DNA of 64,000 nt, from contig JBBTCT010000022.1 in the NCBI GenBank assembly GCA_038060895.1, positions 256,001-320,000 of the forward strand. The letters run 5' to 3'. A program made the translations under genes and the position numbers. Below the pieces are notes generated by a model, which saw only the letters and a program-made list of their open reading frames with translations, was not told the origin of the DNA and ran no database searches. This DNA comes from Planctomycetota bacterium. GTDB taxonomy: Bacteria > Planctomycetota > MHYJ01 > WSZJ01. Below are positions 16,580 through 18,923 of the stretch, in pieces. How positions within the stretch are numbered: the first letter of the stretch is position 1; each line of letters begins with the position of its first letter.

Positions 16580-16873
16580 GGGCAAAGCATCGTACGCGCG
16601 GGGCTGCTGTCGCGCGAGTGGCAGGGGGAATAGTCGCCGGAACGCTCAGCCGAGATCGTATAAAATAAGTACTCTGCGCTGCTTAATGATATGCGTGGCT
16701 GGAGTCTGACGCACAGCGAATTTCAACGGGATTATGCACTTGACAAACTTAAAATCCATGAACGAAACTCGTACAGGCATCATGGTTTGCGTCGATTATG
16801 GCCCCGCGATTAAACGAATAAGAAAATCGCCAGAGTCCCGTTTCAGGACGCGATTTTGGCCCGCGACGAGGAT

Positions 16874-17002
16874 TCAGGACTTACGGCGAGGTTTCCCGGC
16901 CTTCTTAGCCCGCTTCAGGGGGGGTGTAGCGAGGGCCTTCCGGATCATGGCGTCGAAGTCCACGCGGGTCACTTCTCGGTGGCTCTCTGGCTTGGGTTTC
17001 AT
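16874..17002 (-). CDS. 42-aa basic peptide inside the IS
   Basis: AAGGAG RBS; MKPKPESHREVTRVDFDAMIRKALATPPLKRAKKAGKPRRKS; too short for the ORF track. Confidence 0.6.
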   Translation of the reverse strand: MKPKPESHREVTRVDFDAMIRKALATPPLKRAKKAGKPRRKS

Positions 17003-17049
17003 CTATCTATCTCCTTGGGGGTTATCAGGCTGATTCCCCTAGAAAGTAT

Positions 17050-17078
17050 TTGACAGCGTCTGCGGCGCAGCTTAGGAT
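17050..17078 (+). promoter_or_regulatory. Sigma70-type promoter for the wHTH-tRNA-tRNA unit
   Basis: TTGACA-17 bp-TAGGAT; ATG lies 7 nt after the -10, implying a leaderless mRNA. Confidence 0.75.
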
Positions 17079-17085
17079 TTCCCAG

Positions 17086-17475
17086 ATGCGAAGGAACAAC
17101 AAGATCGTGAGCCTTGGAGAGGAAATCGCGGCGAAGCGCCGGGAGCTGGCGGCGCTTGAGGCCGAACTTGACATCGAAGTCAGGCGGTATAGCGGTGGTC
17201 ATGCGAAGGCTCCACAAGCGGTGGTGACACCGCCTAGACCTGCGGACCCTGAAGAGGTCCTTCTGAGTGATGCCATCATCGCTGGCAAGGTGGTGCCTCT
17301 CTTGGACAGGGAGCCGGATCGGGTGTTCACCGTGGATGATATCACAAGATTGACCGGAGTGCCGCGCCACCTTCTGGTGATGTCTATCGGGCGCATGGTG
17401 CGCTGGCACAAGGTCCACAAAGTGGAAGCTGGCAAGTACAAGGCATCCACGGTTAAGAAAGCGATGGAGGGATAA
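17086..17475 (+). CDS. Passenger protein: N-terminal coiled coil plus putative C-terminal winged helix
   Basis: EEIAAKRRELAALEAEL coil, Pro-rich linker, then VFTVDDITRLTGVPRHLLVMSIGRMVRWHKVHKVEAGKY (helix-turn-helix plus wing pattern). Confidence 0.65.
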   Translation: MRRNNKIVSLGEEIAAKRRELAALEAELDIEVRRYSGGHAKAPQAVVTPPRPADPEEVLLSDAIIAGKVVPLLDREPDRVFTVDDITRLTGVPRHLLVMSIGRMVRWHKVHKVEAGKYKASTVKKAMEG

Positions 17476-17504
17476 AGAAAAACCCTCGGTCGTTGGCCGA
17501 GGGT
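17474..17504 (-). terminator. Minus-strand intrinsic terminator between the wHTH gene and the tRNAs
   Basis: ACCCTCGGTC-GTT-GGCCGAGGGT hairpin preceded by AAAGAAAAA, so the U-tract exists only on the minus strand. Confidence 0.65.
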
Positions 17505-17515
17505 GTACGTCGGTT

Positions 17516-17607
17516 GGAGAGGTGTCCGAGTGGCTTATGGTGCTGGTTTCCAAAACCAGTGAACGGTGGTGACACACCGTCCGAGGGTTCGACTCCCTCC
17601 CTCTCCG
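17516..17607 (+). tRNA. tRNA with Ser-type body and CCA (Trp) anticodon
   Basis: GGAGAGG/CCTCTCC acceptor, G73, G15:C48, CTGGT-TTCCAAA-ACCAG anticodon arm, long variable arm ACGGTG/CACCGT, GAGGG-TTCGACT-CCCTC T arm; 3' CCA not encoded. Confidence 0.92.
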
Positions 17608-17625
17608 TTTTGCTGTTCTGAGGCT

Positions 17626-17720
17626 GGCCGGGTGGCGGAACTGGTTTACGCGCCCGACTTGGAATCGGGTGGTTGTCTCTTGACGGGGGCACCATGCGGG
17701 TTCGAATCCCGTCCCGGTCA
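17626..17720 (+). tRNA. tRNA with Leu-type body and UGG (Pro) anticodon
   Basis: GGCCGGG/CCCGGTC acceptor, A73, D arm GCG-GAACTGGTTTA-CGC with A15:U48, CCCGA-CTTGGAA-TCGGG anticodon arm, ~26-nt variable arm, GCGGG-TTCGAAT-CCCGT T arm; 3' CCA not encoded. Confidence 0.92.
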
Positions 17721-17780
17721 GTCTCATTTTTGAAAGATCGAAGCGCCTTTGCGAAGTGCTTGAGGCTGGCGCGTGTCAAA

Positions 17781-17809
17781 AGAATACAACAAGACTGGGT
17801 GCGTGTCAA
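17781..17809 (-). promoter_or_regulatory. Sigma70-type promoter antisense to the tRNA pair
   Basis: Minus strand TTGACA (17809-17804), 17 bp, TATTCT (17786-17781), pointing into the tRNA genes. Confidence 0.7.
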
Positions 17810-17841
17810 CTTGCGAAATTGACGCACCGCGCCAACTCTGA

Positions 17842-18795
17842 CTAGCGCTTCACATCCCGCTTTGGCGCTTCCAGAGTGAGGCGTTTTCCTTCGGTGCGCT
17901 GGATCGCGTCGAGCATCTTCGCCCCGTCTGACTTCTTCCGGTTGTTGAACGTCCAGAGGTAGGAATCGAGGTACTTCGGAAGGTAGTCATGCCCAACGCC
18001 GTGGAAGATGCCCACGATGGAAGTCTTGAAGTTGGCGAAGAGGCCCTCAACGCCGTTCGTCGTGACGTCCCCACGGGCGTACTCTTCGATGGAGTGGTTG
18101 ACGGTTTCATGCTTCACCATCATCCGCCCTGGCGTGACGTACAGCTTGGATTCGTCTGAGTGAAGCACCGTCCGCTTGGGATCAACGTTCTTCATTACGA
18201 AGCGGCGGATGTCCCGCGCGTTGGCCTTGGGCGCTGGCTTGACGACGGCACGCGCGGACCCTCCACGCTGAACCAGCGCCAGCACGGTTGACTTCTTCAC
18301 GGCCTTGCCACGGCGCGATCCGCGCCCCTTGTGGCCGAAGTAGGTTTCGTCCGCTTCGATGATCCCGGCGAGTGGTGACTTGTCGGAGTTCTGGAGAGCG
18401 TGGCGCACCCGATGGCAGAGAAACCACGCGGTGCGATAACTGCCGAGTTCAAGGTGCCGCTGGATTGCCAGCGCCGAGATTCCTGTCTTGCTGGACGAAA
18501 TGAGGTAGAAGGCCAGCAGCCACTTGTTGAGCGGGATGTGGCTGTCCTCGAAGATCGTGCCAACGGTGCAAGTGAACTGCTTCCGGCACGCCACGCAGAA
18601 CAGCAGCCCCTTGCGAATCTTCTTCTCCGCGTCTGGCTTGAGCCGGGCGACCTTCTCGCGTTCGGTGCAGCCACAGTGCGGGCAAACGGGGCCAGAGGGC
18701 CAGCGCACCGCTTCGATGTAGTTACGCGCGGCGTCCTCGTCTGGGAAGAGAGAGAAGATGTTCGTCAGGCTCACGGCATCGGGCGTCGGGATCAT
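17842..18795 (-). CDS. IS1595-family (ISXO2-like) DDE transposase
   Basis: Zn ribbon CPHCG..CVAC, GTIFEDSHIPL, IEADETYFG, LHSDE, VNHS, TNGVEG..FK, YLDSY. Confidence 0.95.
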   Translation of the reverse strand: MIPTPDAVSLTNIFSLFPDEDAARNYIEAVRWPSGPVCPHCGCTEREKVARLKPDAEKKIRKGLLFCVACRKQFTCTVGTIFEDSHIPLNKWLLAFYLISSSKTGISALAIQRHLELGSYRTAWFLCHRVRHALQNSDKSPLAGIIEADETYFGHKGRGSRRGKAVKKSTVLALVQRGGSARAVVKPAPKANARDIRRFVMKNVDPKRTVLHSDESKLYVTPGRMMVKHETVNHSIEEYARGDVTTNGVEGLFANFKTSIVGIFHGVGHDYLPKYLDSYLWTFNNRKKSDGAKMLDAIQRTEGKRLTLEAPKRDVKR

Positions 18796-18820
18796 GGGCG
18801 TCTCCTTTGAGTACGCCTAA

Positions 18821-18849
18821 AAGATACTAGATCATGCTTGTTTTGTCAA
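18821..18849 (-). promoter_or_regulatory. Transposase promoter with -35 inside the TIR
   Basis: Minus strand TTGACA-17 bp-TATCTT, then AAGGAG RBS and ATG at 18795. Confidence 0.75.
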
Positions 18850-18923
18850 GTGCATAATCCCGATTTCAAGCTTAACATTATGATATTAAATAAGTTATGA
18901 CACATTGTCTGCAACGGTTCATT

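What the first reader, a model, noticed from the sequence alone, without database searches (positions are those of the whole stretch)
17516..17607. Serine-body tRNA with a tryptophan (CCA) anticodon
Seen: complete cloverleaf with G73, G15:C48, G1G2A3 acceptor start and a long variable arm (tRNA-Ser hallmarks), but loop UU-CCA-AA; real tRNA-Trp has a short variable loop. It is one change (position 35) from tRNA-Ser(CGA). Inference: inserts Ser at UGG codons. Caveat: G73 plus CCA are also TrpRS determinants, so dual charging is possible. Acceptor, anticodon and T stems are perfectly paired, which argues against decay.
Basis: partly seen in the sequence, partly recalled or inferred. Interest (0 to 1): 0.85.

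Follow-up and report, generated by a model that had tools for sequence, protein, structure and literature searches.

The report
Mismatched tRNAs riding a jumping gene
A well-formed serine-type tRNA with a tryptophan anticodon sits beside a leucine-type tRNA with a proline anticodon inside a small mobile insertion sequence, so a jumping gene may carry tRNAs able to misread the genetic code.

Summary
Window 17516-17607 (X1) is a complete 7/5 cloverleaf with a serine-type body and anticodon CCA. The same sequence occurs in three other sequencing runs, so C35 is not an error.

- 18 nt downstream lies X2 (17626-17720), a leucine-type tRNA with the proline anticodon UGG.
- Both are passengers of a 2136-bp IS1595-family transposon (16727-18862). 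It has perfect 21-nt inverted repeats and a 7-bp target duplication. An empty-site form exists in another sample and in three genus relatives.
- Leu-like tRNAs with foreign anticodons recur in related IS1595 elements: UGG four more times and UGC once. A transposase-less pair (UUA + UGG) occurs in a genus relative. Their stems covary strongly.

Best reading, about 50%: the anticodon-blind SerRS and LeuRS charge these tRNAs, which then act as mobile missense suppressors (UGG to Ser, CCN to Leu). Charging and decoding are untested.

Rivals:
- disguised Trp/Pro tRNAs;
- a role outside translation that serves the transposon;
- decay.

The closest precedent is the 'irregular tRNA polycistrons' near toxin-antitoxin genes and transposons (Mukai 2017). 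I found no report of tRNA cargo in an insertion sequence.

The parts
16720..16726 (.). Left copy of the 7-bp target-site duplication ATTTCAA
   Evidence: Read. The empty-site joint shares 7 letters on both sides.
16727..16747 (+). Left terminal inverted repeat (21 nt, CGGGATTATGCACTTGACAAA)
   Evidence: 100% complementary to 18842-18862. The IR cores of related elements are alike.
16874..17002 (-). Small basic ORF (42 aa), transcribed divergently from the tRNAs
   Evidence: Translation. Weakly similar ORFs sit at the same place in three other tRNA-bearing elements. The HMM hits below 1e-3 only its four training members, so that search is circular. No Pfam or NCBIfam match.
17050..17475 (+). 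ORF141 (likely 129 aa from the ATG at 17086): coiled coil followed by a possible winged helix; orphan
   Evidence: No Pfam or NCBIfam match. Only itself was found among 5.8 billion proteins. The Atlas gives winged-helix leads only.
17482..17504 (-). Intrinsic-terminator-like hairpin followed by a T run, on the transposase strand, just beyond the antisense of the tRNAs
   Evidence: Hairpins at the same position occur in G004, G162 and the viral contig.
17516..17607 (+). X1: Ser-type class II tRNA, anticodon CCA, G73, no encoded CCA end
17626..17720 (+). X2: Leu-type class II tRNA, anticodon UGG, A73, A15:U48, variable arm of about 23 nt
   Evidence: Rfam 55.5 bits. The minimum-energy fold is a cloverleaf at -42.1 kcal/mol. 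The nearest own tRNAs are three tRNA-Leu. Stems covary with relatives.
17842..18795 (-). IS1595-family DDE transposase (317 aa), convergent with the tRNAs
   Evidence: Pfam DDE_Tnp_IS1595 2.3e-29 and Zn_ribbon_IS1595 5e-12. NCBIfam NF033547 194 bits against a cut-off of 75.
18821..18849 (-). Promoter-like site for the transposase, with its -35 TTGACA inside the right repeat (consensus match only)
18842..18862 (-). Right terminal inverted repeat
18863..18869 (.). Right copy of the target-site duplication ATTTCAA
   Evidence: Empty-site joint 16719->18863.

Best explanation
X1 is an intact serine-identity tRNA that carries the tryptophan anticodon CCA. It lies in tandem with X2, a leucine-identity tRNA that carries the proline anticodon UGG. 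Both are passenger genes of a 2.1-kb IS1595-family transposon that inserted recently.

SerRS and LeuRS do not read the anticodon. The host's single SerRS and single LeuRS are therefore expected to charge X1 with Ser and X2 with Leu. On the ribosome the two tRNAs would then compete with the normal tRNA-Trp and tRNA-Pro. The result would be low-level Trp-to-Ser substitution at UGG and Pro-to-Leu substitution at CCN. In short, this would be a mobile pair of missense suppressors.

Shown: the structure of the tRNAs, the type of their bodies, their mobility, and the recurrence and covariation of the Leu-like cargo.

Inferred: expression, processing, charging and decoding, and any benefit to the element or the host.
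For: **tRNA quality.**

**Body type.** With the anticodon masked, X1's three nearest own tRNAs are tRNA-Ser and X2's three nearest are tRNA-Leu, out of 79 compared. X1 shares its whole acceptor and T arm with the host tRNA-Ser(GGA).

**Identity rules.** PMC9976931 (passages) states that Ser identity is independent of the anticodon, that tRNA-Ser with a UGG anticodon stays serylated, and that the tRNA-Leu anticodon arm is dispensable for charging.

**Synthetases.** The genome has one SerRS and one bacterial LeuRS, with no extra paralogue.

**Mobility.**
- Perfect 21-nt inverted repeats and a 7-bp duplication.
- A contig of run X3 joins 16719 to 18863.
- In G002, G003 and G004 both flanks lie on one contig, 112 to 814 bp apart, against 3047 to 3070 bp here.

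**Recurrence.** Leu-like tRNAs with non-Leu anticodons lie in or beside 5 of the 20 IS1595 loci found in 301 phylum genomes: two in G000 (UGG), G162 (UGG), G183 (UGG) and G080 (UGC). One more lies in a viral contig. A transposase-less pair, UUA + UGG, occurs in genus mate G004.

**Selection.** Across five Leu-like cargo tRNAs, 99% of cells are paired and 12 of 20 pairs change on both sides. None of 500 shuffles reaches this. The loop CUUGGR stays the same throughout.

**The UGC case.** That tRNA has C3:G70 and not G3:U70. G3:U70 as the AlaRS determinant is my recall. On that basis AlaRS should not charge it, which leaves LeuRS as the plausible charger for that member.
Against: - There is no evidence of expression, processing or charging. 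The one RNA run has contigs only inside the transposase gene.
- X1 has a U10:U25 mismatch in its D stem.
- Both hybrids also carry the main determinants of the anticodon's own synthetase. X1 has CCA plus G73 for TrpRS. X2 has G35, G36 and A73 for ProRS. The host ProRS is the archaeal/eukaryote-like family I (558 bits); no family II enzyme was found over its cut-off.
- Proteome-wide Pro-to-Leu and Trp-to-Ser errors should be costly, and no benefit is evident.
- The transposases show no sign of needing recoding.
- No relative of X1 itself was found, so its anticodon has no comparative support.
Confidence: 0.5

Rival explanations
1. Disguised cognate tRNAs. TrpRS charges X1 with Trp and ProRS charges X2 with Pro, through the anticodon and the discriminator base. 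The foreign bodies would make them insensitive to something that attacks the normal tRNA-Trp and tRNA-Pro, such as a PIN/VapC-type tRNase. The cargo would then be an immunity gene.
For: - X1 has CCA plus G73, and X2 has G35, G36 plus A73. These are named as major Trp and Pro determinants in PMC9976931.
- The host ProRS is family I.
- Sibling IS1595 elements carry toxin-antitoxin cargo. A PIN/VapC toxin follows the transposase in 2 of 3 plasmid relatives inspected. A Panacea antitoxin domain occurs in 2 of 10 neighbouring ORFs tested, from 8 loci.
- One member lies in a viral contig.
- That VapC toxins cut tRNA anticodon loops is my recall.
Against: - X1 lacks A1:U72 and G3:C70. X2 lacks G72, G15:C48 and G37.
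- The UGC member has no G3:U70, so it cannot be a disguised tRNA-Ala.
- The UUA member of G004 has no cognate synthetase at all.
- The Leu-type D arm and A73 are conserved across the cargo tRNAs. That would be unnecessary if the body were only a disguise.
- No tRNase gene was found in the element.
Confidence: 0.15
2. A role outside translation that serves the transposon. The tRNA genes lie antisense within the 3' untranslated region of the transposase transcript, upstream of its terminator. They may regulate the transposase, or act as an RNA partner of the small basic protein or of ORF141, possibly as the RNA half of a toxin-antitoxin-like stabilisation module.
For: - The layout is convergent, with a hairpin at the matching position. 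A minus-strand T run was tested in the window; for G004 and G162 I read the A run 5' of the hairpin myself, and the viral contig has a run on both sides.
- A small basic ORF is transcribed divergently from the tRNA in 4 of 4 elements compared.
- The variable arms are oversized, about 23 to 33 nt against roughly 11 to 16 nt (my count) in the host tRNA-Leu.
- Mukai 2017 found irregular tRNAs that are charged but not used in translation, and allo-tRNA variants that killed E. coli (PMC5389517, section 16).
- Sibling elements carry toxin-antitoxin genes in the cargo slot.
Against: - The anticodon loop and every tertiary hallmark of a decoding tRNA are kept: U8, A14, G18G19, the T loop and U33.
- The layout differs in G080, where the tRNA lies upstream of the transposase.
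- Evidence for the small ORF is weak: 23-36% identity and a circular HMM.
Confidence: 0.2
3. Neutral hitchhikers or decaying pseudo-tRNAs. These would be captured host tRNA-Ser and tRNA-Leu copies whose anticodons drifted.
For: - U10:U25 in X1.
- The G004 UGG copy has A18 and G55 and scores only 38.4 bits.
- The G183 transposase has an in-frame TGA.
- X1 has no conserved relative.
- A Ser-like CCA sequence from metagenomes (L043/L049) has a broken acceptor stem.
Against: - Strong compensatory covariation alongside an unchanged UGG loop.
- Three of X1's stems are perfect, and X2 folds as a textbook cloverleaf.
- The transposase is intact, and the perfect repeats and duplication point to a recent jump.
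Confidence: 0.1

Closest known systems
Irregular tRNA polycistrons and allo-tRNAs (Mukai et al. 2017, NAR; PMC5389517; section 16 read)
   Same: They are tandem odd tRNAs that look like missense or nonsense suppressors. They are serine-chargeable bodies with foreign anticodons, found near transposon genes and toxin-antitoxin systems in environmental bacteria.
   Different: Allo-tRNAs have 8/4 or 9/3 acceptor/T branches, whereas X1 and X2 are canonical 7/5. Those came from Acidobacteria-like sequences, whereas these are Planctomycetota. Leu-type bodies and carriage inside a defined insertion sequence with repeats and a target duplication are not described in the parts I read. The supplementary figures were not available to me.
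tRNA-Ser and tRNA-Leu anticodon variants that mistranslate (yeast tRNA-Ser(UGG); human tRNA-Leu and tRNA-Ser variants; PMC9976931 passages, PMC11415595 passages, PMC11028032 abstract)
   Same: The logic is the same: an anticodon-blind synthetase charges a body that carries another amino acid's anticodon.
   Different: Those are engineered or are single-base variants of chromosomal genes. These are diverged, structurally conserved genes carried by a transposon.
tRNAProX / ProRSx of Streptomyces (PMC10404621, seen in search listing and abstract only)
   Same: A natural bacterial tRNA family whose anticodon and identity do not match, proposed to cause deliberate mistranslation.
   Different: That system has a proline-type body and a dedicated second ProRS. 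Here the bodies are Ser and Leu types and no extra synthetase was found.
Passenger-carrying IS1595-family insertion sequences
   Same: The element has a DDE_Tnp_IS1595 transposase with a zinc ribbon, terminal inverted repeats, a short target duplication and a cargo slot beside the transposase.
   Different: In the relatives I inspected the cargo is protein genes (PIN/VapC, Panacea). tRNA cargo did not turn up in my literature searches.

Membership tests
tRNA (Rfam RF00005) | Covariance-model score above the gathering threshold, over the full cloverleaf | tested here: met
   X1 scores 48.8 bits and X2 55.5 bits against a threshold of 29, both over model positions 1-71.
Bacterial tRNA-Ser (class II, serine identity) | Long variable arm with a stem, G73, and acceptor and tertiary features like the host tRNA-Ser | tested here: met
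   The variable stem is 6 bp and G73 is present. The acceptor and T arms are identical to the own tRNA-Ser(GGA). The three nearest own tRNAs are tRNA-Ser.
Bacterial tRNA-Ser (class II, serine identity) | Serine anticodon (NGA or GCU) | tested here: not met
   The anticodon is CCA.
Bacterial tRNA-Ser (class II, serine identity) | Charged by SerRS | not testable with these tools
   Needs an aminoacylation assay.
Bacterial tRNA-Trp | Anticodon CCA and discriminator G73 | tested here: met
   The determinants are named in PMC9976931.
Bacterial tRNA-Trp | Class I body (short variable loop), with A1:U72 and G3:C70 as in the host tRNA-Trp | tested here: not met
   X1 has a variable arm of about 22 nt, G1:C72 and A3:U70. 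The host tRNA-Trp at C16:102319 has a short variable loop and A1.
allo-tRNA (Mukai 2017) | 8/4 or 9/3 acceptor/T-stem arrangement | tested here: not met
   Infernal aligns both tRNAs as 7/5. ARAGORN's extra eighth pair in X2 uses base -1 and A73.
tRNA-Sec | UCA anticodon with an 8/5 fold | tested here: not met
   The anticodon is CCA and the fold is 7/5. A separate tRNA-Sec call exists at C4:13533.
IS1595-family insertion sequence | DDE_Tnp_IS1595 transposase with an N-terminal zinc ribbon | tested here: met
   Pfam 2.3e-29 and 5e-12. NCBIfam NF033547 scores 194 bits against a cut-off of 75.
IS1595-family insertion sequence | Terminal inverted repeats, target-site duplication and evidence of insertion | tested here: met
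   The repeats are 21 nt and perfect. The duplication is 7 bp; that 8 bp is usual for this family is my recall.
tRNAProX / ProRSx system | A proline-type tRNA body with a dedicated second ProRS | tested here: not met
   The bodies are Ser and Leu types. Only one ProRS gene was found.
Toxin-antitoxin module | A toxic component together with a neutralising partner | tested here: inconclusive
   No known toxin or antitoxin family was found in the element. Only sibling elements carry PIN or Panacea genes. The padloc library was not searched.

The most novel reading that the evidence does not exclude
A clade of IS1595 transposons carries a new kind of cargo: suppressor tRNAs built on the bodies read by anticodon-blind synthetases (Leu, Ser). 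These deliberately misread sense or stop codons (CCN, GCN, UGG, UAA). The tRNA would be the active, probably toxic, half of a toxin-antitoxin-like module. It would be controlled by the divergently transcribed small basic protein, and in two-tRNA versions also by a winged-helix protein. Such a module would stabilise the element or impose a mobile, switchable change of the genetic code on its host.
Probability: 0.25. Interest if true: 0.9.

Novelty: new variant of a known kind. Interest (0 to 1): 0.78.

Why it matters
Natural tRNAs whose identity and anticodon disagree are rare. They are central to how genetic codes change and how cells tolerate or exploit mistranslation. Here such tRNAs are carried by a simple transposon, so the capacity to misread codons could move between genomes in a single jump.

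The recurrence of Leu-like tRNA(UGG) in distantly related elements, with compensatory changes in the stems, argues for function and against accident. It also gives a defined 2-kb unit that can be cloned and tested.

If the tRNAs instead work outside translation, they would be a new RNA component of an insertion sequence.

Either way the case supplies ready-made natural Ser and Leu suppressor scaffolds, and it links odd tRNAs to toxin-antitoxin-type cargo.

Tried and rejected
1. **Sequencing error at C35.** Rejected: three other runs give 0 differences.

2. **Other long 'odd' ARAGORN calls in the genome** (C5, C33, C46, C32, C1). Their stems are poor and I treated them as false positives.

3. 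**Relatives of X1.**
- BLAST in 61 relatives gave only ordinary tRNA-Ser.
- The looser loop-plus-T-arm pattern (no D-arm anchor) hit 14 of 401 phylum genomes. Only G000 and G192 held a tRNA at the match.
- The stricter Ser-body pattern gave 3 stretches in genome contigs: one G192-type, one archaeal tRNA-Gly(UCC) and one with no tRNA.
- In metagenomes it gave 13 stretches: 3 G192-type, 2 L043/L049, 3 archaeal Gly-type, L050, L052, and 3 with no tRNA.
- In viral contigs it gave 0.
- No true homologue of X1 was found.

4. **Recoding of the transposase.** I looked for P or W where homologues keep L or S. One lone column (P222) is not shared by the other cargo-bearing elements, so I rejected the idea.

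5. **Homology between ORF141 and the G004 upstream ORF.** BLAST gave E 0.054. Atlas scores are leads only.

6. **IS1595 repeat remnants around the G004 pair.** None at 5 or fewer mismatches.

7. **PIN-like genes in held loci or in G000.** Searched by tblastn with two plasmid PIN proteins; none found. This is an insensitive test.

8. **tRNAs beside 28 viral IS1595 homologues.** None in the cargo position. L087 and L103 have tRNAs about 2 kb away.

9. **Sensitivity of the Rfam scans.** Wide scans missed the L068 tRNA, which scores 40.5 bits only in a narrow search. Rfam never reports the L071 tRNA. ARAGORN misses variable arms longer than about 26 nt. All 'no tRNA' counts are therefore soft.

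10. **RNA evidence.** The RNA run X7 covers only two pieces of the transposase gene, and a library can contain DNA. It gives no evidence either way on tRNA expression.

Full report
**1. The observation**

ARAGORN finds two tRNA genes in the 64-kb window, and they are adjacent: 17515-17608 with anticodon CCA, and 17625-17721 with anticodon UGG. Rfam's tRNA model matches 17516-17607 (X1) at 48.8 bits and 17626-17720 (X2) at 55.5 bits. Both matches are full length, against a gathering score of 29.

X1 folds into a cloverleaf with a long variable hairpin. The energy is -39.6 kcal/mol with z = -3.1, and 1 of 200 shuffles folds as well.

Its features:
- a 7-bp acceptor stem GGAGAGG with G73;
- G15 and C48, G18G19, and T loop UUCGACU;
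- a perfect 5-bp anticodon stem with loop UU-CCA-AA;
- a perfect T stem;
- a variable stem of 6 bp.

The D stem is the weak point, with U10:U25 and G13:U22.

Contigs of three further sequencing runs, from two other studies, cover X1 and X2 without a single difference. The anticodon is therefore not a sequencing error.

**2. What bodies these are**

The genome is a 5.42-Mb, 47-contig assembly with 65.8% G+C and is 86.5% complete. It has a canonical tRNA-Trp(CCA) at C16:102319 and a canonical tRNA-Pro(UGG) at C1:197343.

I masked the anticodon and aligned X1 and X2 against 79 of the other 84 ARAGORN tRNA calls in the genome, leaving out the six calls I had judged false positives:
- X1's three best partners are tRNA-Ser(GGA), tRNA-Ser(GCU) and tRNA-Ser(CGA).
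- X2's three best are tRNA-Leu(CAA), tRNA-Leu(UAA) and tRNA-Leu(UAG).

X1 shares its first 9 nt and last 30 nt exactly with tRNA-Ser(GGA). That covers the whole acceptor and T arm. Its anticodon stem is entirely different.

X2 has the Leu-type D arm (GCGG-AACUGGUUUA-CGC), A73 and A15:U48. Its variable arm is about 23 nt, longer than in the host tRNA-Leu genes. Its minimum-energy fold is a textbook cloverleaf at -42.1 kcal/mol.

Both tRNAs are 7/5, so neither is an allo-tRNA nor tRNA-Sec-like.

**3. The context: a transposon**

Immediately downstream, on the other strand, lies an IS1595-family transposase at 17842-18795. Pfam gives DDE_Tnp_IS1595 at 2.3e-29 plus the zinc ribbon. NCBIfam NF033547 scores 194 bits.

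Perfect 21-nt inverted repeats at 16727-16747 and 18842-18862 enclose 2136 bp. The 7-bp direct repeat ATTTCAA flanks them.

Inside the repeats, in order, are:
- a 42-aa basic ORF on the minus strand (16874-17002);
- the orphan ORF141 on the plus strand;
- a terminator-like hairpin oriented for the minus strand;
- X1 and then X2;
- the transposase.

Evidence that the unit inserted recently:
- A contig of run X3, from a different study, joins 16719 directly to 18863. It skips 2143 bp, which equals the element plus one copy of the duplication. The shorter side of the joint is only 23 nt.
- In genus relatives G002, G003 and G004 both flanks lie on one contig, 112 to 814 bp apart. Here they are 3047 to 3070 bp apart.
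- None of the 7 genus relatives has this transposase at E <= 1e-10.

The unit, tRNAs included, is therefore a recent and polymorphic insertion.

**4. Relatives of the cargo**

*A pair in a genus relative.* G004 carries an adjacent pair: a Leu-type tRNA with anticodon UUA (ochre-reading) and a Leu-type tRNA with UGG. The pair follows a 152-aa ORF and a hairpin. No IS1595 gene or repeat remnant lies nearby.

*A second element in the same genome.* On contig C9, a second IS1595 element carries a 73-nt tRNA(UGG). Its transposase is 48% identical to the window's in the MAFFT alignment (49% in the genome search), and its inverted repeats are 24 nt. The body of this tRNA is closest to three short Leu-anticodon tRNAs of a tRNA array.

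*A profile search of the phylum.* A profile of the two transposases found 20 loci in 15 of 301 phylum genomes at E <= 1e-40. Leu-like tRNAs with non-Leu anticodons sit in or beside five of these loci:

| Locus | tRNA | Notes |
|---|---|---|
| G000, window | X2, UGG (plus X1) | described above |
| G000, C9 | 73 nt, UGG | short Leu-like body |
| G162 | 103 nt, UGG | variable arm about 33 nt, encoded CCA, 28-nt repeats |
| G183 | 87 nt, UGG with C33 | found by ARAGORN only |
| G080 | 87 nt, UGC | no G3:U70, perfect 25-nt repeats, Rfam 40.5 bits in a narrow search |

*A viral contig.* A viral contig holds a further element with a Leu-like tRNA(UGG) whose variable arm is about 28 nt.

*How rare this is.*
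- A Leu-body-plus-UGG pattern matched 2 of 56 genomes of the class.
- It matched 3 of 401 genomes of the phylum sample, and 2 of those hits are real.
- None of 28 other viral IS1595 homologues has a tRNA in the cargo position.

*Evidence of selection.* Five Leu-like cargo tRNAs align with 99% of stem cells paired. Twelve of 20 pairs change on both sides, and none of 500 shuffles reaches this. The D stem and the loop CUUGGR stay fixed.

*X1 has no relative.* The nearest things found are these:
- A Ser-body tRNA with an expanded loop UUUCCAAA, seen in a bog Planctomycetota genome and three metagenome contigs. One copy has a compensatory stem change. In the one locus examined (L045) it lies beside a GNAT-type gene and shows no IS1595 gene or repeats.
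- A Ser-like CCA sequence with a broken acceptor stem.

**5. Cargo of sibling elements**

In 2 of 3 plasmid relatives inspected, a hypothetical gene and a PIN/VapC toxin gene follow the transposase.

Among 10 neighbouring ORFs from 8 Planctomycetota loci, 2 carry the Panacea antitoxin domain.

So the slot that holds the tRNAs in the window's element holds toxin-antitoxin genes in some relatives. Mukai et al. likewise noted allo-tRNAs and irregular tRNA polycistrons near toxin-antitoxin systems and transposon genes (PMC5389517, section 16).

**6. Mechanism**

Serine identity rests on the variable arm and ignores the anticodon. tRNA-Ser with a UGG anticodon stays serylated and mistranslates in yeast. 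[quoted passage not shown]

The genome has one SerRS and one bacterial LeuRS. The simplest prediction is Ser-X1 reading UGG and Leu-X2 reading CCN.

However, X1 also has CCA plus G73, and X2 has G35, G36 plus A73. These are the main Trp and Pro determinants. The only ProRS is the archaeal/eukaryote-like family I. That this type leans on the anticodon is my recall. Dual charging therefore cannot be excluded.

Two members argue against a pure disguise model. The UGC tRNA lacks G3:U70, and the UUA tRNA has no cognate synthetase.

The convergent layout may instead point to a role for the transposon itself. The tRNAs lie antisense between the transposase stop codon and a terminator on the transposase strand. 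The small ORF is transcribed divergently from them.

I put mistranslating suppressors at 0.5, a role outside translation at 0.2, disguised cognates at 0.15 and decay at 0.1.

**7. Novelty**

Four searches found no report of tRNA genes as insertion-sequence cargo, or of Leu-type or Ser-type tRNAs with Pro or Trp anticodons in bacteria: 'IS1595/passenger/tRNA', 'irregular tRNA/missense suppressor/transposon', 'tRNA genes/insertion sequence/passenger gene/mistranslation' and 'Planctomycetes/genetic code'.

A 2024 review of mistranslating tRNAs does not contain 'transpos', and contains 'mobile' only in a species name.

I rate this a new variant of a known kind.

Noticed in passing
G000:C22:195134-199316 (outside the window, about 57 kb before its start; held as L059): An array of 34 tRNA genes on one strand (ARAGORN-36 of contig C22) covers nearly all amino acids. 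Its Leu-anticodon tRNAs are only 73-74 nt, with no long variable arm. One call has a 4-nt anticodon. A similar short tRNA(GAG) lies at C22:182028.
   Followed up: partly
L045 2438-2531 (-); also L038, L044 and L053 (G192:C175): A Ser-body tRNA with an encoded CCA end has an expanded anticodon loop UUUCCAAA closed by extra pairs. One copy shows a compensatory G-to-A change. It lies just upstream of an ORF with a GNAT Acetyltransf_6 domain. It may be a non-ribosomal aminoacyl donor.
   Followed up: partly
window 17547-17553 and 17658-17664: The anticodon loops of X1 (UUCCAAA) and X2 (CUUGGAA) are complementary over 5 to 6 bases. The duplex energy is -5.6 kcal/mol. The two tRNAs could pair loop to loop. 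The G004 pair (UUA + UGG) is not complementary.
   Followed up: partly
L050 591-677: A metagenome Ser-body tRNA has the odd loop CCAAAAG. ARAGORN reads it as anticodon AAA with C33.
   Followed up: no
L087 5287-5360 (-), viral contig: A 74-nt tRNA has anticodon GCU (Ser codons AGY) but no long variable arm. It lies 1.9 kb from an IS1595 homologue.
   Followed up: no
L071 2455-2541 (-): By eye and by ARAGORN this is a clean Leu-type cloverleaf. Rfam cmscan returned no match at all for a 141-nt search at E <= 10. This is unexplained, and it is a warning about negative Rfam scans.
   Followed up: partly
G000:C4:13533-13625: A good tRNA-Sec (UCA) call, so the organism probably uses selenocysteine. 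A second call on C1 looks false.
   Followed up: no
L073 2405-3447 (-) and L069 422-1039 (+): Panacea (SocA-like) antitoxin genes sit beside IS1595 transposases in two other Planctomycetota genomes. In L073 the Panacea gene is followed by a 140-aa ORF of unknown family, a possible toxin.
   Followed up: no
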